NCBI GenBank assembly: GCA_964275345.1
Contig: CAXYBK010000003.1
Coordinates: 334,797-398,796 of the forward strand
Source: an uncultured SAR86 cluster bacterium
Lineage (GTDB): Bacteria > Pseudomonadota > Gammaproteobacteria > Magnimaribacterales > D2472
DNA: 64,000 nt
Direction of reading: 5' to 3'
Shown here piece by piece: positions 707 to 45,369 of this stretch. The position numbers and the translations under genes were made by a program. The stretch's first letter is position 1, and the number at the start of each line of letters is the position of its first letter. Under the pieces are notes generated by a model. That model saw nothing but the letters and a program-made list of their open reading frames with translations. It did no database searches and was not told where the DNA came from.

Positions 707-888
707 GAATCGACAAACCAATTCACCGCTATGTGCTATACCTGAACCGAAAGGACAGGTGGTGAACTTCATATCGAATCAGGCTTCCCTCTAAGGAGGT
801 AATGCTCAACAACGACATTGGATTATCACCAGATAATTTAATATCGGTTCAAAATTAATTAACACATTGGCAAATGAACCAGAATGTC
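707..888 (-). ncRNA. ssrS: 6S RNA
   Basis: The minus-strand sequence carries blocks matching E. coli 6S as I recall it: GAACCGAUAUU (E. coli GAGCCGAUAUUU), GUUGAGCAUUACCUCCUUAGAGGGAAGCCU (E. coli GGUGAGCAUGCUCGG..CCGAGAAGCCU), and GUUCACC..UUCGGUUCAGGUAUAGC (E. coli AUUCACC..GGGUUCAAGGGUUACAGC). Length is about 182 nt. A TATAAT lies just upstream (893-898), and the position between zapA and ygfA is conserved. Ends are +/-10 nt. Confidence 0.8.
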
Positions 889-19893: not shown

Positions 19894-20558
19894 TTAACCA
19901 CTATGTTGCTTCTCTTTGATTTCATCAAGAGTTTTACAGTCTATGCAATGAGTTGCAGTTGGCCTAGCTTCTAATCTTTTAATACCTATATTGACACCAC
20001 AAGACTCACAATAGCCATAATCATCTTGTTTTAATAGCTCAATAGACGAAGCGATTTTGTTGATCAGTTTTCTTTCTCTATCTCTAGTTCTTAATTCAAA
20101 TGCAAACTCTTCTTCTTGTGAGGCTCTATCTAAATCATCAGCAGGTTTTTCTCCCTTATCCTTTAAATGCTCAAAAGTTTTTTGCATTTCATCTCTAAGG
20201 TCTTCCCGCCAATTAACTAGGATTTCTCTAAAGTGCTTTTTCATAGCAGCACTCATATATTTTTCTTTTTTCTTTGGTTTGTATGCAGATGGTTTTTTCT
20301 TAGCCACAACCTTCTTAGCTACAGGCTTCTTAGCCACAACTTTTTTAGCACACTTTTGCCACAGGCTTCTTAGCCACAACTTTTTGCTACAGGCTTCTTA
20401 GCCACAACCTTTTTGGCCACAGGCTTCTTAGCCACAACCTTTTTAGCCACAGGCTTTTTCTTAACTACAGCTTTTTTAGCTACAGGCTTCTTGGTAGTAG
20501 TTTTTTTTGCTTGTTTTGTGGTCAATTTTGATTTCTTATCAGAATTTGCTTTAGTCAT
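19894..20558 (-). CDS. dksA: RNA polymerase-binding transcription factor DksA with lysine-rich AKKPVAKKVV-repeat N-terminal extension (frame disrupted inside the repeat)
   Basis: The core aligns with E. coli DksA (YMSAAMKKHFREIL.., DDLDRASQEEEF, RDRERKLI, zinc finger CESCG..CIDC). Upstream, the Lys/Ala/Pro/Val-rich frame runs on to the ATG at 20558 but passes through all three frames between about 20345 and 20390. ORFs 20370..20558 and 19894..20379. Confidence 0.8.
20299..20492. repeat. about 30-bp tandem repeat (consensus TAGCCACAACCTTTTTAGCCACAGGCTTCT), about 6 units
   Basis: TAGCCACAAC recurs at 20301, 20331, 20371, 20399 and 20429. Unit lengths are 30/40/28/30, and the irregular units coincide with the frame breaks. 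Confidence 0.85.
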
Positions 20559-39873: not shown

Positions 39874-41070
39874 ATGAAAATTTTATGCGTATTATATGAT
39901 GATCCAAAAACAGGTATGCCTGAAAGATATGCCAGAGATGACCTGCCTAAATTAGACAAGTACCCAGATGGAATGAGTCTTCCGTCACCCAAAGCTATCG
40001 ATTTCACTCCAGGCGAATTGCTTGGTTGTGTATCTGGAGAGCTTGGACTTAGAAAATTTTTAGAAGATGCTGGACACACCTTAGTTGTGACCTCTGATAA
40101 AGATGGCGAGGGATGTGAGGCTGACAAAGAATTAGTTGATGCGGATATTGTTATATCTCAACCATTTTTTCCATATTATTTAACTAGAGATAAAATGGAA
40201 ACAGCGCCAAATTTAAAAATGGCAATTACTGCTGGGATTGGATCAGACCATGTTGACCTTCAAGCTGCCATGGACAATAACGTTGATGTTGTTGAGGTTA
40301 CTTATTGTAACTCTCGTTCGGTTGCTGAACACATTGTTATGATGATCTTATCTATGGTTCGTGATTATCATACTCAACATAGAATTGTAAAAGAGGGTGG
40401 ATGGAATATAGCTGATGCTGTCCAAAGATCATATGACGTAGAAGGTATGCATGTTGGAACTGTGGCTGCAGGAAGAATCGGTATTGACGTGTTAAGAAAA
40501 ATGAAACCCTTTGATGTGCATCTTCACTACTTTGATATTCATAAACTTTCTGATGAAATAGAAGCAGAATTAAATCTTACTTATCATGATTCTGTAGAGT
40601 CACTAGTTGCTGTTTGTGATGTAGTTAATATTAGCTGTCCATTGCATCCTAAAACCGAACATTTATTTGATGATGCAATGATCAGCAAGATGAAACGAGG
40701 TGCATATGTTATTAATACTGCTCGTGGAAAGATTTGTGATAAAGACGCAATTGCACGAGGCTTAGAATCTGGTCAATTAAGTGGATATGCTGGAGATGTT
40801 TGGTTCCCGCAACCAGCTCCAAATGATCATGTATGGAGAACTATGCCCAATCATGGCATGACTCCTCATACTTCAGGTACTTCGTTATCTGCTCAAACAA
40901 GATATGCTGCCGGGGTTAGAGAAATTCTAGAATGTTACTTTGCTGGTGAGCCAATTAGAGATCCATATTTAATTGTTCAAAATGGTGACTTGGCTGGAAT
41001 GGGAGCACATTCTTATACAAAAGGTACAGCCACTGATGGTTCCGAAGAGGCTGCCAAATATCAGAAATAA
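39874..41070 (+). CDS. fdh: NAD+-dependent formate dehydrogenase (metal-independent, D-2-hydroxyacid dehydrogenase family)
   Basis: The N-terminus MKILCVLYDDPKTGMPERYARDDLPKLDKYPDG..PSPKAIDFTPGELLG.VSGELGLRKFLE..GHTLVVTSDKDG is almost identical in pattern to Pseudomonas sp. 101 FDH as recalled. GAGRIG NAD fold. 398 aa. Confidence 0.93.
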   Translation: MKILCVLYDDPKTGMPERYARDDLPKLDKYPDGMSLPSPKAIDFTPGELLGCVSGELGLRKFLEDAGHTLVVTSDKDGEGCEADKELVDADIVISQPFFPYYLTRDKMETAPNLKMAITAGIGSDHVDLQAAMDNNVDVVEVTYCNSRSVAEHIVMMILSMVRDYHTQHRIVKEGGWNIADAVQRSYDVEGMHVGTVAAGRIGIDVLRKMKPFDVHLHYFDIHKLSDEIEAELNLTYHDSVESLVAVCDVVNISCPLHPKTEHLFDDAMISKMKRGAYVINTARGKICDKDAIARGLESGQLSGYAGDVWFPQPAPNDHVWRTMPNHGMTPHTSGTSLSAQTRYAAGVREILECYFAGEPIRDPYLIVQNGDLAGMGAHSYTKGTATDGSEEAAKYQK

Positions 41071-41119: not shown

Positions 41120-41150
41120 CGAATAAAAAAGAATAATATAAAAATATAAC

Positions 41151-41233
41151 TGCAAAGGGGTGGTCATTCTGATCTGAGATCTACACAGAAACCCTTTGAA
41201 CCTGATCCATTTAATAATGGCGGAGGAATTGCA
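41151..41233 (+). promoter_or_regulatory. TPP (THI-box) riboswitch
   Basis: TGCAA-AGGGGUGG..CUGAGA..ACCCUUUGAACCUGAUCCAUUUAAUAAUGGCGGAGGAA-UUGCA contains every conserved THI-element block. The P1 3' strand and the GGAGG Shine-Dalgarno overlap the ATG at 41233, which implies translational control. Confidence 0.88.
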
Positions 41234-43341
41234 TGAATACCATTAGAACTAGTCTATTTATTTCTTTATTTATTTCTTTCTTTAGTTCTCAGATAGCATC
41301 TGAAACTATAGAGGAGATTATTATTAAAGGCGATTGGCGCCAAACCTCAGCAGATCAAGAAGATTCAAGTGTTCTTGTACTTGACGAGGAGATAATAAAA
41401 TCTCAACCACTTAAACACTTTGAACAACTTTCCTACTTGGTCCCAAATTTAAATTTTGCTGCTAGTGATTCAAGAGCGCGTTATTTCCAAATCAGAGGCA
41501 TCGGCGAAAGATCTGGATATCAAGGAACTCCTAATTCTTCAGTAGGATTTTTGATAGATGATATTGATTATTCAGGACAGGGGGGAATTGCTACAACTTT
41601 TGATCTCGATCAAATAGAGATTTACAGAGGTCCCCAGGGATCCAGGATTGGAGCAAATGCTTTAGCTGGGTTAATTTATATAAAAACTAAAGATCCAACT
41701 GATAAGTTTGAAGGCACAAGCGAGTTAACAATAGGCTCATATGGAACTAAGAGTACTGGCGTTGCTTTTGGCGGACCACTTAAAGTAAATAATGATCTTT
41801 CTTATAGGCTTGTTTTGAGAAAAGATAAATCTAATGGTTATAGAAAAAATTTATACCTCAATAAATCTGATACATCCAGAAAAGACGAGACAACCGCTCG
41901 TTTAAAAATTAAATGGAAATTTGATGATAAAACATCAGTTGATTTTTTGGTTATGCAGGTCGACATGGATGATCCTGCTGATATTTGGACTATAGATGGA
42001 AGTTTAAATACTCTATCTGATAGACCGGGGATGGACTCACAAAAGACTAATGCTTATGGATTAAAAGTATTTCGTGCATTAAATGGTTTTGAAATTCAAA
42101 GTCTTACAAGTTCAACAGATACTGATGTTGTGTTTAGTTATGATGCTGACTGGGGCAATCCAGATTCTCATTCACCCTATATTTATGACTATTTTTCTGA
42201 GACATTAAGAGACAGAAGCTCATTTAGTCAAGAATTTAGGCTAATTTCGGATAAATCAGACTTTTTATCAAATAATCTTATGGAATGGGTAGTTGGAATG
42301 AACTATTTAGAGCTTAAAGAGACAAATTTAAAATATGATGATGGTATTTATGGTGACCCTGCAGACCCATATGGTCCTTATGCTAGCGAATCTTCTTCTT
42401 CAAGTTCATATAAATCAGAAAACTTATCATTTTTTGGGAATATAGATTATCTTCTTTCAGAATCAACAAGGATATCTTTAGGTTTAAGAATGGAGGATTG
42501 GAAATCAAAATACTCAGATTCTTTTGGAGAATCATTTAATCCTTCGAATGATATGTCTGGAGGTAAAATATCTTTGATAAAAAATATAGAAAGTGGATCT
42601 AATATTTTTATTAGTATTGCTAAAGGATATAAGCAAGGTGGATTTAATCTTGGTTTAGGCTTAGGTGGAGATGTCTCAAATAAAGATCTTACCTATGATC
42701 CAGAATTTCTCACTAATTATGAAATAGGCATCAACTCTAAACTTAAGGATTCTAAATTAAATATTGAAACTGTAATATTTTATTCTGATCGAGAAGATCA
42801 ACAAGTTTTGATTTCTACTCAAGTGGATCCAACAGATCCAAATACTTTTTCATTTCTAACCCAAAATGCTGCAGAGGGAGTTAACTATGGCCTAGAAATA
42901 AATCTTGATATGCAGCTAACAAATGATTTTAATATATTTGCAAATCTAGGAATTCTCAAAACTGAAATTAAAAATTGGGAGTCTCGTCTAGATCTTGAAG
43001 GCCGATCGCAAGCTCATGCTCCAGAGAGAAGTTATGCTTTTGGTTTTAATTGGGCATTGAAATCAAATACTTATTTATCAGCAGATGTGACTGGTAAAAG
43101 TGAATTTTATTATTCAGATTCTCATAATAATAAATCAAAGTCATATAACCTAATGAATATAAATTATGGCTATGAAAAGAATAATTGGACTTATACATTA
43201 TGGGCGAGAAATATCTTTGATACTTACTACTCAGTCAGAGGTTTTTACTTTGGGAATGAAGCTCCAAATTTTGAAGAAACATTATACGAAAGACATGGAG
43301 ATCCAAGACATGTAGGAATATCAGTGAGATATGACTTTTAA
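41233..43341 (+). CDS. TonB-dependent outer-membrane receptor (predicted thiamine/thiamine-precursor uptake)
   Basis: 702 aa with signal peptide, plug domain (IEIYRGPQGSRIGANALAG), a beta-barrel and a terminal aromatic residue (..ISVRYDF). Sits directly behind the TPP riboswitch. Confidence 0.88.
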   Translation: MNTIRTSLFISLFISFFSSQIASETIEEIIIKGDWRQTSADQEDSSVLVLDEEIIKSQPLKHFEQLSYLVPNLNFAASDSRARYFQIRGIGERSGYQGTPNSSVGFLIDDIDYSGQGGIATTFDLDQIEIYRGPQGSRIGANALAGLIYIKTKDPTDKFEGTSELTIGSYGTKSTGVAFGGPLKVNNDLSYRLVLRKDKSNGYRKNLYLNKSDTSRKDETTARLKIKWKFDDKTSVDFLVMQVDMDDPADIWTIDGSLNTLSDRPGMDSQKTNAYGLKVFRALNGFEIQSLTSSTDTDVVFSYDADWGNPDSHSPYIYDYFSETLRDRSSFSQEFRLISDKSDFLSNNLMEWVVGMNYLELKETNLKYDDGIYGDPADPYGPYASESSSSSSYKSENLSFFGNIDYLLSESTRISLGLRMEDWKSKYSDSFGESFNPSNDMSGGKISLIKNIESGSNIFISIAKGYKQGGFNLGLGLGGDVSNKDLTYDPEFLTNYEIGINSKLKDSKLNIETVIFYSDREDQQVLISTQVDPTDPNTFSFLTQNAAEGVNYGLEINLDMQLTNDFNIFANLGILKTEIKNWESRLDLEGRSQAHAPERSYAFGFNWALKSNTYLSADVTGKSEFYYSDSHNNKSKSYNLMNINYGYEKNNWTYTLWARNIFDTYYSVRGFYFGNEAPNFEETLYERHGDPRHVGISVRYDF

Positions 43342-43918
43342 CCTTATTAATCCAATCTTAATGGAGATAACTGCAGTAGTATTTGCAATTATTTATCTAT
43401 TATTAGCTGTAAAACAAGATGTAAGATGCTGGTATGCGGCAATTTTTAGTTCATTCCTATATTTTTTTATAATGATGTCAGCAAATTTATATATGGAAGC
43501 ATATTTACAGATTTTCTATATCATTATGGCAATATATGGATGGTTCCAGTGGAATAAAATTAGTGAAAATAAATCTAAATTTATTGTTAGAACATGGAGT
43601 ATTAAACAACATCTAATTGTTATTTCTTCAGTAATTTCTTTAGCTTATATTTCAGGCAGTTTACTAAATATTTATACCGAAGCAGCTTTACCATTTATAG
43701 ATGCGCTTACAACGTGGGGAGCAATCATTGCTACTTACATGGTTGCAAAAAAATTACTAGAGAATTGGATATATTGGTTTGTAATAGATTCAATATCAGT
43801 ATTATTATTTATGTCACGTGGATTATATTTAACTTCAGTATTATTTTTTGTATACCTGATAATTATTTATTTTGGTTATAAGTCATGGACAAAAATAAAA
43901 CATGAAATGAATGATTAA
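43331..43918 (+). CDS. PnuC-family transporter (PnuT-like, predicted thiamine permease)
   Basis: 195 aa with about 7 TM helices and the PnuC hallmark W..Y..I.......Y...Q..Y..M..YGW..W region. Overlaps the receptor gene by 11 nt. Confidence 0.75.
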   Translation: MTFNLINPILMEITAVVFAIIYLLLAVKQDVRCWYAAIFSSFLYFFIMMSANLYMEAYLQIFYIIMAIYGWFQWNKISENKSKFIVRTWSIKQHLIVISSVISLAYISGSLLNIYTEAALPFIDALTTWGAIIATYMVAKKLLENWIYWFVIDSISVLLFMSRGLYLTSVLFFVYLIIIYFGYKSWTKIKHEMND

Positions 43919-44732
43919 TTTACAAAATAAAATTAATAAAATTTCTGGTAATTTTAAATTAGAAAATGAAATAAAGTCAGGACCAATATCAAAAATATTT
44001 TCTTGTGAGTTTAATAATATTAAATCAATTGTTAGATTTGATTTACCTCTTGCCTCTAAATTAAAGTTAAATCGTATGAAAGAAATTATGATTCTCAATG
44101 AGATAAGTTTCTTAAATCAATCTCCAAAAATATTGTTTGATAATATTAGTGAAGGTATTTTAATTTGGGAATATATTTCAGGAGCACAGTTAAATATTTC
44201 TAAAAACGACGAACCATTATTAACAGACTTAAGTAGATCATTAAAAAAAATACATCAAATAAAATTATCAAAAAGCTTAGTTACAAATTTTAATAAATCG
44301 ATTATTTCTTATAAAGCATTACTAATCGATTCACCAAATCAAAAATTAATTAATAAAGGTCTTAAGCTATTTGAAGAAATTTATGATGAAGATGCGCCTC
44401 GTGTTTTCAGTCACAATGACTTAAACAAAACTAACTTATTGCTTGGTAGTAAAATTTATTTCCTAGATTGGGAATATGCAAGTATGAATAGTCCTTATTT
44501 TGATATTGCTTCACTTGCAGCTACTTTTAACTTGGATAACGTAGGAATTAATATTTTATTAGAAGGTTACTCAGATAACTTTATTGCTATTAATCAAGAA
44601 AAACTTAAAAAATGGATCAGTTTTACTTATTATTTAGATTACCTGTGGAGAATGTCTATTGTGAAATTAGATGATTCATACAACAAAACCATGAAATTAG
44701 ATGAATTTGAAAGTTTTTTGCTAAATTTATAG
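43911..44732 (+). CDS. choline/aminoglycoside-kinase-fold phosphotransferase (ThiK-like, predicted thiamine kinase)
   Basis: 273 aa with the catalytic loop SHNDLNKTNLL and the metal-binding FLDWEYA motif of the APH/ChoK fold. Overlaps the pnuC-like gene by 8 nt. Confidence 0.7.
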   Translation: MINLQNKINKISGNFKLENEIKSGPISKIFSCEFNNIKSIVRFDLPLASKLKLNRMKEIMILNEISFLNQSPKILFDNISEGILIWEYISGAQLNISKNDEPLLTDLSRSLKKIHQIKLSKSLVTNFNKSIISYKALLIDSPNQKLINKGLKLFEEIYDEDAPRVFSHNDLNKTNLLLGSKIYFLDWEYASMNSPYFDIASLAATFNLDNVGINILLEGYSDNFIAINQEKLKKWISFTYYLDYLWRMSIVKLDDSYNKTMKLDEFESFLLNL

Positions 44733-44739
44733 GCTTTAA

Positions 44740-45204
44740 CTAGTTCAATAAGAAAAATACAATCATTACACCTATTACAAGCAATATAAGCAAATTATTG
44801 TCAAAAGCATCAATTAAGCTATCTTTTGTAGGTAACCTTAAAGACTTTATATAGTCCATATCTAAGTATTCTTCTAAAAATCCATCTTTTCTTGTCTTTT
44901 TAATACTATTTTCGGCATTCTCATTATTTACACCTGATATTGACTCATTTGACATTATATTATCCTCTAAATTATTGTTTTCTTCATAACCATTATTTGT
45001 ACTCATAGCTTCAATTGAGACTAATTCTGCTAAGATTTTATCTCTTTTTTCTCTGGCGACTATAATATCAGAAGTTTCTAGAGATTTCTTTATAAATTCT
45101 TTACCAATTATTTCTGAAACTTTTTTAGAAACTCTCTTTTGAATAAAATATATATCTCTATTTTTTCCCCGTAAAACCAGGTATTTATCATGATTTGTAC
45201 TCAT
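44740..45204 (-). CDS. hypothetical tail-anchored protein with integrase-arm-like (DUF6538-like) N-terminal module
   Basis: 154 aa. The N-terminus 'YLVLRGKNRDIYFIQKRVSKKVSEIIGKEFIKKSLETSD' resembles the G.YYFR.RVP..L....GK.EI..SL.T.D N-terminal module of some tyrosine recombinases. An Asn/Glu-rich linker and a single C-terminal TM follow. There is no recombinase catalytic domain. Confidence 0.45.
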   Translation of the reverse strand: MSTNHDKYLVLRGKNRDIYFIQKRVSKKVSEIIGKEFIKKSLETSDIIVAREKRDKILAELVSIEAMSTNNGYEENNNLEDNIMSNESISGVNNENAENSIKKTRKDGFLEEYLDMDYIKSLRLPTKDSLIDAFDNNLLILLVIGVMIVFFLLN

Positions 45205-45300
45205 AATGTACTCAAATAATATTTAATTGTACTCATAATATGCCATATTATTTTTATCTAATCAACTATATGTACTCATATTGTATTATTTGTACCCATA
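45196..45300. repeat. five direct copies of TGTAC(T/C)CA(T/A)A in the divergent intergenic region
   Basis: Copies start at 45196, 45207, 45228, 45271 and 45291, giving spacings of 11/21/43/20 bp. The first copy contains the ORF start codon (ATGAGTACA on the minus strand). A sixth copy lies inside the ORF at 44998-45007. Confidence 0.85.
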
Positions 45301-45369
45301 TTATCTTTAATTTTTTATTTTACTGCCTATATTTTCTTCTATGAGTTGTGTAATAATAATATTTAGATC

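What the first reader, a model, noticed from the sequence alone, without database searches (positions are those of the whole stretch)
44740..45350. Helically phased array of TGTACTCATA repeats in front of a tail-anchored protein with an integrase-arm-like N-terminus
Seen directly: five same-orientation copies of TGTAC(T/C)CA(T/A)A start at 45196, 45207, 45228, 45271 and 45291. The spacings of 11, 21, 43 and 20 bp are all near integer multiples of a 10.5-bp helical turn, so the sites would lie on one face of the DNA. They fill the 165-bp divergent region between ORF 44740..45204 (-) and the small-membrane-protein/desaturase-family/nitroreductase genes (+) that lead to the proteorhodopsin gene. 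The first copy contains the ORF's own start codon (ATGAGTACA = M-S-T). A sixth copy, with 16/17-nt extended identity (CAT[G/T]ATTTGTACTCATA, 44991-45007 versus 45189-45205), lies inside the ORF and again encodes M-S-T-N at Met67. That could be an internal start or a duplicated 5' end. A degenerate inverted copy (TATGAGTTGTG) sits at 45340-45350. Inference: the ORF product has an N-terminal segment resembling the arm-type DNA-binding module found at the N-terminus of some tyrosine recombinases, but it has no catalytic domain and ends in a single TM helix. A membrane-tethered DNA-binding protein recognising an iterated, phased operator array would be an unusual regulatory device. I know of no described family with this layout.
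Basis: partly seen in the sequence, partly recalled or inferred. Interest (0 to 1): 0.7.

Follow-up and report, generated by a model that had tools for sequence, protein, structure and literature searches.

The report
Membrane-tethered orphan integrase arm-binding protein
A small gene kept by all sampled SAR86 marine bacteria encodes only the "arm"-DNA-binding head of a mobile-element integrase joined to a membrane anchor, and it sits behind a conserved, helically phased row of the same repeats that related integrases use as arm sites, so the host appears to have kept a mobile-element part as a membrane-bound DNA-binding protein.

Summary
TGTAC(T/C)CA(T/A)A occurs six times in 64 kb, all at this locus (0.42 expected). 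In gene orientation the motif is TATG(A/G/C)GTACA. It precedes the orthologue in all 52 other SAR86 genomes retrieved, in the same orientation and at conserved offsets (0, -11, -32, -54, -75, -95). Density is about 24 per kb against 0.011 per kb in the flanks.

The 154-aa protein is under purifying selection. Its N-domain passes the Pfam DUF6538 threshold and is 44-53% identical to the N-termini of full-length tyrosine integrases. Those integrases belong to tRNA-Glu-targeting islands. Each island carries the same kind of direct repeat (ATGnnnACA) on both arms of its att site. The last copy overlaps the int start codon, as here, and the central triplet varies with the N-domain.

So the array is a set of arm-type sites. 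The gene is a catalytic-domain-less integrase derivative with a hydrophobic tail, fixed in SAR86. Extra copies lie inside its own variable-linker coding region, in either orientation and in different frames.

The most likely mechanism is cooperative binding and autorepression. The cellular role is unknown. I found nothing about it in the literature searched. DNA binding, membrane insertion and regulation are inferred, not shown.

The parts
44740..45204 (-). Gene for the 154-aa orphan arm-binding-domain protein (stop codon at 44740-44742).
   Evidence: ORF. 1136 homologues of about 150 aa. Substitutions at codon positions 1/2/3 are 581/259/1200 across 51 of the 52 other loci. Covered by metatranscriptome contigs.
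45007..45204 (-). Codons 1-66: DUF6538 N-domain, the presumed arm-type DNA-binding domain.
   Evidence: Pfam 28.5 bits against GA 27 when scanned alone. 44-53% identity to the N-termini of integrases P0150, P0173 and P0174. AF2 model with pLDDT 86.7 and topology b-b-a-b-a. Mean column conservation 0.83.
44881..45006 (-). Codons 67-108: variable N/E/S/D-rich linker. Its DNA carries the intragenic motif copy.
   Evidence: Column conservation 0.27 and composition N 17%, E 12.5%, S 10%, D 9%. Intragenic sites in 38 of 53 loci, in both orientations and several frames.
44797..44880 (-). Codons 109-136: conserved segment before the tail (FLEEYLDMDYIKSLRLPTKDSLIDAFDN). It aligns weakly with the integrase inter-domain linker (EYPW.GH..G.LP).
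44743..44796 (-). Codons 137-154: hydrophobic C-terminal tail, the predicted single transmembrane helix (tail anchor).
   Evidence: Kyte-Doolittle mean of the last 19 residues is 1.64-2.79, median 2.27, in 51 orthologues. The tail is at the extreme C-terminus in all.
45196..45205 (-). Site 0 (TATGAGTACA in gene orientation). It contains the start codon at 45202-45204.
   Evidence: Present at this offset in 51 of 53 loci. Same layout at the start codons of integrases P0150, P0196 and P0237.
45207..45216 (-). Site -11 (TTTGAGTACA). It covers the ribosome-binding region; its GAG/GGG is the only SD-like element.
45228..45237 (-). Site -32 (TATGAGTACA), immediately downstream of the predicted -10 hexamer.
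45237..45265 (-). Predicted sigma-70-like promoter: TTGATT (45260-45265), 17-nt spacer, CATATT (45237-42). This is a consensus match only.
   Evidence: Read from the sequence and from the alignment of close relatives, for example L002 TTGAAT-17-TATATT. It was not listed by the simple scan.
45271..45280 (-). Site -75 (TATGAGTACA), 5 bp upstream of the predicted -35 hexamer.
45291..45300 (-). Site -95 (TATGGGTACA), the distal end of the array.
44998..45007 (-). Intragenic site at +198 (TATGAGTACA), encoding A-M-S-T at Met67.
   Evidence: The same position reads ATGGGTACA (M-G-T) in L002 and L003, following the motif's own degeneracy.

Best explanation
The repeats are arm-type binding sites. The ORF encodes the matching arm-binding (DUF6538) domain of a tyrosine integrase that has lost its core-binding and catalytic domains, has gained a C-terminal membrane anchor, and has been fixed as a vertically inherited gene in SAR86.

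Proposed mechanism (inferred). The basic N-domain binds the TATG(A/G)GTACA copies. Copies spaced 11 or about 21 bp apart lie on one face of the DNA and are filled cooperatively, helped by confinement of the protein to the membrane plane. The flexible acidic linker lets the anchored domain reach the nucleoid. Sites flank the predicted promoter and cover the transcription start, the ribosome-binding region and the start codon, so occupancy represses the gene's own expression. This is negative autoregulation of the kind shown experimentally for integrase genes whose promoter overlaps attL. The intragenic copies 200-430 bp downstream could add looping or a roadblock.

The function of the steady pool of protein beyond autoregulation is not established.
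For: Shown by computation:
- The motif is confined to this locus. It occurs 6 times in the window against 0.42 expected. Across 53 loci the density is 24.2 per kb upstream, 2.63 per kb in the gene body and 0.011 per kb in 364 kb of flanks.
- The array is present, in the same orientation and at conserved offsets, in all 52 other SAR86 loci.
- The array travels with this gene and not with the divergent neighbour, which differs among lineages.
- The N-domain matches DUF6538 and is 44-53% identical to the N-termini of full integrases.
- In the integrase family profile, lambda Int residues 64-339 align from profile position 132 onwards. The DUF6538 region therefore occupies the place of lambda's arm-binding domain.
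- Eight integrase loci carry direct repeats of the same form just upstream of int, with the last copy on or abutting the start codon. In L057, L058 and L060 the repeats lie on both sides of the att core, which is a displaced tRNA-Glu 3' end near int and the intact tRNA-Glu at the far end.
- The central triplet of the motif varies with residues of predicted strands b2 and b3. Proteins with GGTACA-type sites share IQ.R and FIK. Proteins with GAAACA, GACACA or ACTACA sites differ there.
- Purifying selection is evident. N-domain identity is 67-89%, against 28-45% for the neighbouring kinase in the distant loci, and third-position changes predominate.
- Intragenic copies occur in both orientations and several frames (MST/MGT, xEY, NVPI) within an otherwise unconserved linker. 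This indicates selection at the DNA level.
- The gene is present in metatranscriptome assemblies. In two runs the array region is uncovered or covered only at low depth while both flanking genes are covered.

From the literature:
- Overlap of attL arm sites with the int promoter gives negative autoregulation in KplE1 IntS and is predicted to be common among tRNA-associated integrases (PMC2951348).
- Arm-binding domains have three strands plus a helix and bind accessory arm sites (PMC8138268). The AF2 model (pLDDT 86.7) has three strands, a short helix and a long C-terminal helix.
Against: - No experiment or direct assay shows that this domain binds these repeats. No DUF6538 member has been characterised, and no paper in the library mentions the family.
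- The promoter is a consensus guess and the transcription start is unknown. Only assembled contigs, not raw reads, were available.
- 15 of 53 loci have no exact intragenic copy.
- The 18-19-bp spacing class is not well phased.
- Autoregulation alone does not explain why the gene has been retained for so long.
Confidence: 0.65

Rival explanations
1. Trans-acting modulator of mobile islands. The main job of the protein is to occupy the arm sites of resident or incoming tRNA-Glu islands that use the same motif. It would compete with the full integrase, which must bridge arm and core sites, and so block or bias integration or excision, possibly holding the element at the membrane. Its own array would only set its level. 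This extends the best explanation rather than excluding it.
For: The island integrase P0150 has an N-domain 53% identical to this one, and its arm sites (ATGGGTACA) fall within the SAR86 motif. P0205 and P0200 use T(A/G)GGTACA. The islands carry defence-like cargo (Mrr) and pile up in tandem at tRNA-Glu with different arm specificities. This is a setting in which interference between elements, or between host and element, is plausible.
Against: Co-residence in one cell is not shown. The island hosts are only labelled 'Gammaproteobacteria bacterium'. The one shared host gene is 85% identical to the window's, against 90-98% among SAR86. No match in the PADLOC defence models.
Confidence: 0.15
2. 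Relic or active attachment region. The array is what remains of an attP/attR arm, or is still used as one. It is bound mainly by full-length integrases supplied in trans, which would make this spot a hotspot for gene gain and loss. The short ORF would be a by-product or a dominant-negative remnant.
For: The side of the array away from the gene is a rearrangement breakpoint. The neighbour there is a 2-hydroxyacid dehydrogenase, a small membrane protein plus desaturase, a nitroreductase, proteorhodopsin (L038, L040) or unrelated genes in different lineages. Truncated DUF6538 fragments fused to neighbouring genes do arise, for example P0151 fused to the SpoU methylase that flanks tRNA-Glu.
Against: No core-type site, tRNA or tRNA fragment lies next to the array in the window or in the SAR86 loci. 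The ORF has a conserved length, a conserved tail and a codon-position pattern typical of a functional protein across the order. It is transcribed.
Confidence: 0.08
3. Chromosome-membrane tether or iteron-type element. The protein-array complex physically anchors this chromosomal region to the membrane, for segregation or organisation, or acts like plasmid iterons in replication control.
For: Phased direct repeats resemble iterons. There are 4-10 sites per locus for a membrane-anchored binder. In another lineage the same N-domain and motif are fused in frame to the membrane-anchored Rieske subunit PetA (P0152).
Against: There is no Rep-like protein. No DnaA box lies in or next to the array; the nearest 1-mismatch match is at 44644, inside the kinase gene. 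No origin-associated genes lie near the skew minimum. Only one cluster per 8-kb locus, and nothing like a set of dispersed centromere-like sites, was seen in 407 kb. The second PetA fusion (P0159) lacks the anchor.
Confidence: 0.06
4. The repeats are bound by some other regulator, or act at the RNA level, and the resemblance to arm sites is coincidental.
For: Sites -11 and 0 also form the SD-like element and the start codon of the mRNA. Binding by the encoded protein has not been tested.
Against: Most copies lie upstream of any plausible transcript, and some intragenic ones are inverted, which argues for recognition of duplex DNA. The same repeat layout follows DUF6538 domains through at least eight unrelated loci, with matching changes in motif. 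No Rfam family matches here.
Confidence: 0.05

Closest known systems
Arm-binding (AB) domains of tyrosine integrases and their arm-type sites (lambda Int P/P' arms; Tn916, SXT and P2-type integrases)
   Same: An N-terminal small domain predicted as a three-stranded sheet plus helix. It has recognisable sequence homology to the N-domain of bona fide integrases. There are multiple 9-10-bp direct repeats next to the gene, and in the related islands these flank the att core on both sides.
   Different: No core-binding or catalytic domain, no core site and no tRNA are present. The protein ends in a membrane anchor. The gene is a vertically inherited chromosomal gene of a whole bacterial order rather than part of a mobile element. 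Extra sites lie inside its own coding region.
Negatively autoregulated integrase genes whose promoter overlaps attL (KplE1 IntS; Panis et al. 2010, PMC2951348)
   Same: Arm-type sites overlap the promoter and 5' end of the gene that encodes their binder. In the related islands a near-consensus TTGAC(T/A)-17-TATAAT/TATAGT promoter (TTGATT in L058) has one site in the spacer and one at the start.
   Different: In KplE1 the repressor is the complete recombinase together with the RDF TorI, and repression is tied to excision efficiency. Here there is no recombinase activity to regulate.
Membrane-bound one-component regulators (ToxR, CadC, TcpP); from my own knowledge of the family
   Same: A cytoplasmic N-terminal DNA-binding domain joined by a linker to a single membrane helix. 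They bind direct repeats near promoters.
   Different: Those proteins use an OmpR-type winged helix and have a periplasmic sensor domain. This protein has an integrase-type domain and nothing beyond the helix (tail-anchored), so no obvious sensing module.
Iterons and Rep initiators of plasmids; from my own knowledge
   Same: Several same-orientation, helically phased repeats lie next to the gene of the presumed binder, with autoregulation.
   Different: No Rep homology, no DnaA boxes or AT-rich unwinding element identified, and a chromosomal syntenic context.
AP2/ERF-type transcription factors proposed to derive from integrase or homing-endonuclease DNA-binding domains; from my own knowledge, not tested here
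   Same: A precedent for exaptation of this kind of small sheet-plus-helix DNA-binding domain as a stand-alone regulator. Weak BFVD structural hits include an integrase and homing endonucleases.
   Different: No significant sequence or structural match to AP2 was obtained. The lineage and the domain partners are different.

Membership tests
Pfam DUF6538 (PF20172), the N-terminal domain of a group of tyrosine integrases | The sequence matches the family profile at or above the curated cut-off (27 bits). | tested here: met
   28.5 bits, E 1.2e-6, for residues 1-70 scanned alone. 26.0 bits for the full protein. The precomputed PF20172 flag is present on nearly all orthologues. All 61 aligned members match.
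Tyrosine recombinase / phage integrase (PF00589) | A catalytic domain with the RKHRH pentad and the tyrosine nucleophile, preceded by a core-binding (SAM-like) domain. | tested here: not met
   No Phage_integrase or SAM-like match, and only 154 aa. The relatives P0150, P0173 and P0174 have the catalytic domain, and P0150 and P0174 also match SAM-like models. The protein is therefore derived from this family but is not a recombinase.
Integrase arm-binding (AB) domain fold | A three-stranded antiparallel sheet packed against a C-terminal helix, structurally similar to the lambda or Tn916 Int N-domains. | tested here: inconclusive
Integrase arm-binding (AB) domain fold | The domain lies N-terminal to the core-binding domain in full-length family members. 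| tested here: met
   The family profile aligns to lambda Int residues 64-339 from profile position 132, which leaves the DUF6538 region in the place of lambda's AB domain.
Arm-type sites of an att region | Several copies of a short repeat, distinct from the core, on both sides of the crossover (core) site of an integrative element. | tested here: met
   This holds for the related islands. L057 has 3 + 4, L058 has 3 + 5 and L060 has 3 + 4 copies flanking the tRNA-Glu 3'-end core. The window locus has the repeats but no core, so it is arm-like without being an att site.
Arm-type sites of an att region | The sites are bound by the N-domain of the cognate integrase. | not testable with these tools
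   There is only indirect support: the motif's central triplet covaries with b2/b3 residues across eight integrases and the orphan.
Tail-anchored membrane protein | A single hydrophobic helix at the extreme C-terminus, no signal peptide, and the bulk of the protein in the cytoplasm. | tested here: met
   The last 19 residues have a KD mean of 1.64-2.79 in 51 orthologues, with no more than about 3 residues after the helix. The N-terminus is basic and hydrophilic. Actual insertion was not tested.
ToxR/CadC-type membrane-bound regulators | An OmpR-type winged-helix DNA-binding domain and a periplasmic sensor domain. | tested here: not met
   No Trans_reg_C or other HTH match. Nothing follows the membrane helix.
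Iteron/Rep replication module | A Rep initiator gene, DnaA boxes and an AT-rich unwinding element beside the iterons. | tested here: not met
   No Rep-family match. No DnaA-box-like sequence between 44653 and 46844 at up to 1 mismatch. The unwinding element was not specifically tested.

The most novel reading that the evidence does not exclude
SAR86 keeps a membrane-anchored 'decoy' arm-binding domain. Besides repressing itself, it captures the arm sites of tRNA-Glu genomic islands or phages that use the ATG(A/G)GTACA motif. This would control or block their integration and excision: a host-encoded, integrase-derived immunity or domestication device acting at the membrane. The recurrence of the same domain and motif fused to the membrane-anchored Rieske protein in another lineage would then reflect selection for tethering as such.
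Probability: 0.2. Interest if true: 0.88.

Novelty: new variant of a known kind. Interest (0 to 1): 0.7.

Why it matters
SAR86 is among the most abundant bacterial groups in the surface ocean, has a streamlined genome with few regulators, and has only recently been cultured. This is a conserved gene with no annotation that can now be read as a defined DNA-binding module with a defined 10-bp target, which makes it directly testable.

It would be a clear bacterial case of a mobile-element arm-binding domain, together with its sites, being retained by the host. It also gives the uncharacterised DUF6538 family a concrete predicted function (arm-site reader) and a recognition code (ATG-nnn-ACA, with the central triplet set by strands b2 and b3).

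It further exposes a family of tandemly accumulating tRNA-Glu islands in low-GC marine gammaproteobacteria. If the protein acts on those islands, it would be a new way for hosts to control integrative elements.

Tried and rejected
- **AF2 of the full 154-aa protein with 12 close orthologues.** The model was unusable (pLDDT 44.6). I replaced it with an N-domain model built from a 61-sequence alignment that includes integrases.
- **PDB sequence profile of the orphan family.** Only noise.
- **PHROGs, NCBIfam and PADLOC.** Nothing informative for the orphan.
- **Naming the island host.** A SecF search and cluster look-ups returned only 'Gammaproteobacteria bacterium'.
- **Scan of viral contigs for two adjacent sites.** This found 4 contigs, none with a DUF6538 homologue. 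One (L075) has a 6 x 11-bp array upstream of a terminase pair and is probably an unrelated packaging site.
- **Replication-origin idea.** No DnaA boxes at the locus and no origin-type genes near the GC-skew minimum.
- **Pseudogene or fossil idea.** Rejected on codon-position pattern, conserved length and tail, and transcription.
- **Internal start at Met67 or a duplicated 5' end.** Rejected, because intragenic copies occur inverted and in other frames in other lineages.
- **Regulatory link to proteorhodopsin.** Rejected as unsupported, because the divergent neighbour is not conserved.
- **Mapping the transcription start.** Not possible, because the runs are held only as assembled contigs.
- **Simple promoter scan.** It did not list the promoter I propose.
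Full report
**1.

The five copies of TGTAC(T/C)CA(T/A)A start at 45196, 45207, 45228, 45271 and 45291. A sixth is at 44998 inside ORF 44740..45204 (-). The pattern occurs six times in the 64-kb window, all at this locus, against 0.42 expected; the largest count in 100 shuffles was 2. One-mismatch variants elsewhere are scattered singletons. In gene orientation the unit is TATG(A/G/C)GTACA, and the copy at offset 0 supplies the start codon (ATG AGT ACA = M-S-T). The 16/17-nt identity between 44991-45007 and 45189-45205 is correct. The proposed inverted copy at 45340-45350 shares only seven bases with the motif and is not part of the conserved array.

**2. The gene is real and conserved**

The 154-aa product has 1136 homologues, and the 120 best listed are all of similar length (136-209 aa). 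An alignment shows three regions:
- a nearly invariant N-terminal 66 residues;
- a variable Asn/Glu/Ser/Asp-rich linker;
- a conserved segment followed by a hydrophobic tail at the very C-terminus.

A scan of one genome per species returned 52 loci, almost all labelled SAR86. Over a 55-residue core of the N-domain, identity to the window protein is 67-89%. Nucleotide differences fall 581/259/1200 on codon positions 1/2/3, the signature of purifying selection. Metatranscriptome assemblies contain the gene. In two runs the flanking genes are covered while the array region is uncovered or covered only at low depth.

**3. The array travels with the gene**

In every one of the 52 loci, copies of the motif lie upstream of the orthologue, on the same strand and at recurring offsets of 0, -11, -32, -54, -75 and -95, sometimes also -115 and -135. 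This holds even where the proteins are only 36-50% identical overall.

Motif density across 53 loci:

| Region | Copies | Density |
|---|---|---|
| 150 bp upstream | 196 | 24.2 per kb |
| Gene body | 62 | 2.63 per kb |
| Flanks (364 kb) | 4 | 0.011 per kb |

Adjacent spacings cluster near multiples of 10.5 bp (10-11, 18-23, 29-32, 39-44, 51-53, 61-63), although the 18-19-bp class is somewhat off phase.

Downstream synteny is conserved. A kinase, a PnuC-type transporter and a TonB-dependent receptor converge on the gene. The divergent neighbour varies: in most lineages it is a 2-hydroxyacid dehydrogenase, and in others a small membrane protein plus desaturase, a nitroreductase, proteorhodopsin or unrelated genes. 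The array therefore belongs to this gene. No link to proteorhodopsin is supported.

**4. Intragenic copies are DNA-level features**

In 38 of 53 loci the linker-coding DNA holds one to four further exact copies. They occur in frame 0 (M-S-T or M-G-T), in frame 1 (x-E-Y) or inverted (N-V-P-I), at different positions in different lineages. The surrounding linker is otherwise unconserved (column conservation 0.27). The copy at Met67 in the window is one of these. It is not an internal start or a duplicated 5' end.

**5. What the N-domain is**

Scanned alone, residues 1-70 score 28.5 bits on Pfam DUF6538 against a cut-off of 27. The full protein scores 26.0 bits. An exhaustive search with the N-domain found short SAR86-type proteins and also three proteins of 426-451 aa with 44-53% identity over the domain. 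These carry DUF6538, a Phage_integrase catalytic domain and, in two of the three, SAM-like domains. BLASTP aligns the orphan with P0150 over 125 residues (39% identity), running into the integrase's inter-domain linker (EY...LP). A profile of this integrase family aligns to lambda Int residues 64-339 from profile position 132, so DUF6538 sits where lambda's arm-binding domain sits.

**6. The related integrases show what the repeats are**

I read eight integrase loci. Each has direct repeats of the form (A/T)TGnnnACA just upstream of int.

| Integrase | Locus | Repeat |
|---|---|---|
| P0150 | L053 | ATGGGTACA |
| P0205 / P0200 | L058 / L060 | T(A/G)GGTACA |
| P0219 | L057 | ATGGAAACA |
| P0173 | L054 | ATGGCAACA |
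| P0174 | L055 | ATGGATACA |
| P0196 | L069 | ATGGACACA |
| P0237 | L067 | ATGACTACA |
| P0262 (distant) | L063 | TTCCTACA |

The two copies nearest int are often 11 bp apart (L053-L055, L058, L060, L067). The last copy overlaps the start codon (M-G-T, M-D-T, M-T-T) in P0150, P0196 and P0237, the layout seen in the window. In L057, L058, L060 and L069 a near-consensus promoter (TTGAC(T/A) or TTGATT, 17-nt spacer, TATAAT or TATAGT) has one repeat in its spacer and one right after the -10 hexamer.

In L057, L058 and L060 the int-proximal repeats follow a terminator hairpin and a displaced tRNA-Glu 3' end. An intact tRNA-Glu(ttc) lies 4.9-9.4 kb away at the other end of the island. Four or five more copies of the same repeat, in the same orientation, sit just inside that end. 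This is the classical arrangement of P and P' arm-type sites around an att core. Islands with different repeat types sit in tandem at the same tRNA.

The central triplet of the repeat changes together with residues in predicted strands b2 and b3. The orphan and P0150, which share the GGTACA type, have the most similar strands. The inference that DUF6538 reads these repeats rests on this covariation and on the analogy with characterised integrases. It has not been tested biochemically, and no paper in the library mentions DUF6538.

**7. Mechanism**

In the window, a TTGATT-17-CATATT element (45265-45237) lies between site -75 and site -32. Site -32 starts at the last base of the -10 hexamer. 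Site -11 covers the only SD-like bases, and site 0 covers the start codon. Other lineages show analogous TTGnnn elements after a site, and a -10-like element before site -11. These are consensus matches, and the simple scan did not list them.

By analogy with KplE1 intS, where overlap of attL with the promoter gives negative autoregulation (PMC2951348), the most likely behaviour is cooperative occupancy and autorepression. The hydrophobic tail predicts a cytoplasmic DNA-binding head on a flexible linker anchored in the inner membrane.

What the protein does beyond controlling itself is unknown. The most interesting possibility is that it also occupies the arm sites of islands that use the same motif. 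Co-residence could not be shown, because the island hosts are unnamed and their one shared gene is 85% identical to the window's, against 90-98% within SAR86.

**8. Rivals**

- A non-functional fossil is excluded by conservation and expression.
- An active att site lacks any core or tRNA.
- An iteron or origin reading lacks a Rep protein, DnaA boxes and origin genes.
- An RNA-level role does not fit the upstream and inverted copies or the absence of any Rfam match.

**9. Comparison and novelty**

The parts are known: an integrase arm-binding domain, arm-type sites, and an autoregulated int promoter. The combination is not, as far as the searched literature shows. The combination is:
- a catalytic-domain-less derivative with a membrane tail;
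- fixed as a syntenic chromosomal gene across an entire abundant marine order;
- with an expanded phased array and sites inside its own coding sequence.

I rate it a new variant of a known kind.

In another, unnamed lineage a 50-52% identical N-domain with the same motif upstream is fused in frame to the Rieske subunit PetA. One version has PetA's membrane anchor and one lacks it. This hints that tethering may matter, but it is not conclusive.

Noticed in passing
window 41146-41245 (+), with 41233-44732: A TPP riboswitch (67 bits) precedes the operon of TonB-dependent receptor, PnuC-type transporter and choline/thiamine-kinase-like protein. This looks like a thiamine salvage or uptake operon. 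It converges on the orphan gene with only 7 bp between the two ORF ends, and no terminator is predicted. The convergent pairing is conserved in most SAR86 loci.
   Followed up: partly
L057 9900-10000 and 18300-18502; L058 9950-10000 and 19239-19454; L060 9690-10000 and 14630-14863: A family of 5-9.4-kb islands integrates at tRNA-Glu(ttc) next to SpoU methylase, an inositol phosphatase and SecDF (where the far flank was held: L057, L058) in low-GC marine gammaproteobacteria. The islands carry DUF6538 integrases and cargo such as an Mrr-type nuclease, a trypsin-like protease and DUF723 proteins. Islands with different arm-repeat types (GGTACA, GACTACA) lie in tandem, leaving hybrid junctions.
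   Followed up: partly
L071 50-973; L072 5800-6609: An N-domain 50-52% identical to the orphan's, again preceded by ATG(A/G)GTACA copies, is fused in frame to the Rieske iron-sulfur subunit PetA, downstream of rplM-rpsI in L072. P0152 keeps PetA's TAT/membrane-anchor segment and P0159 lacks it. Whether these are real fusions or decaying genes is unresolved.
   Followed up: partly
L035 5215-5275: About 750 bp downstream of the orphan gene in this SAR86 lineage there is a second mini-array (GAGTACA, ATGCGTACA, ATGAGTACA). It is followed by a copy of the first six codons (MSTNDK) and then a short unrelated reading frame. This is a partial duplication of the 5' end.
   Followed up: partly
window 20297-20492: A 15/30-nt tandem repeat (TTAGCCACA... 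on the + strand) is coding on the - strand. It gives a Lys/Ala-rich AKKPVAKKVV-type repeat in a small basic protein that starts near 20558, which may be a histone-H1-like nucleoid protein.
   Followed up: partly
window 711-888 (-): 6S RNA (SsrS) gene, 54.4 bits.
   Followed up: no
L075 9856-9929: A viral contig has six head-to-tail 11-bp units containing TGAGTACA upstream of an HTH protein and a large-terminase-like gene, with no DUF6538 homologue present. It is probably a packaging (pac/cos) site that shares the motif by chance.
   Followed up: partly
L057 8117-8224 (-): Two tandem glutamine riboswitch aptamers lie upstream of a 54-aa ORF, just outside the island.
   Followed up: no
window 39874-41070 versus loci L008-L052: The highly conserved 2-hydroxyacid dehydrogenase gene (90-98% identity) lies directly beside the array in most SAR86 genomes. 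In the window's clade it lies beyond the TonB receptor, with a small membrane protein, desaturase, nitroreductase and proteorhodopsin in its former place. The outer edge of the array is thus a recurrent rearrangement breakpoint.
   Followed up: partly
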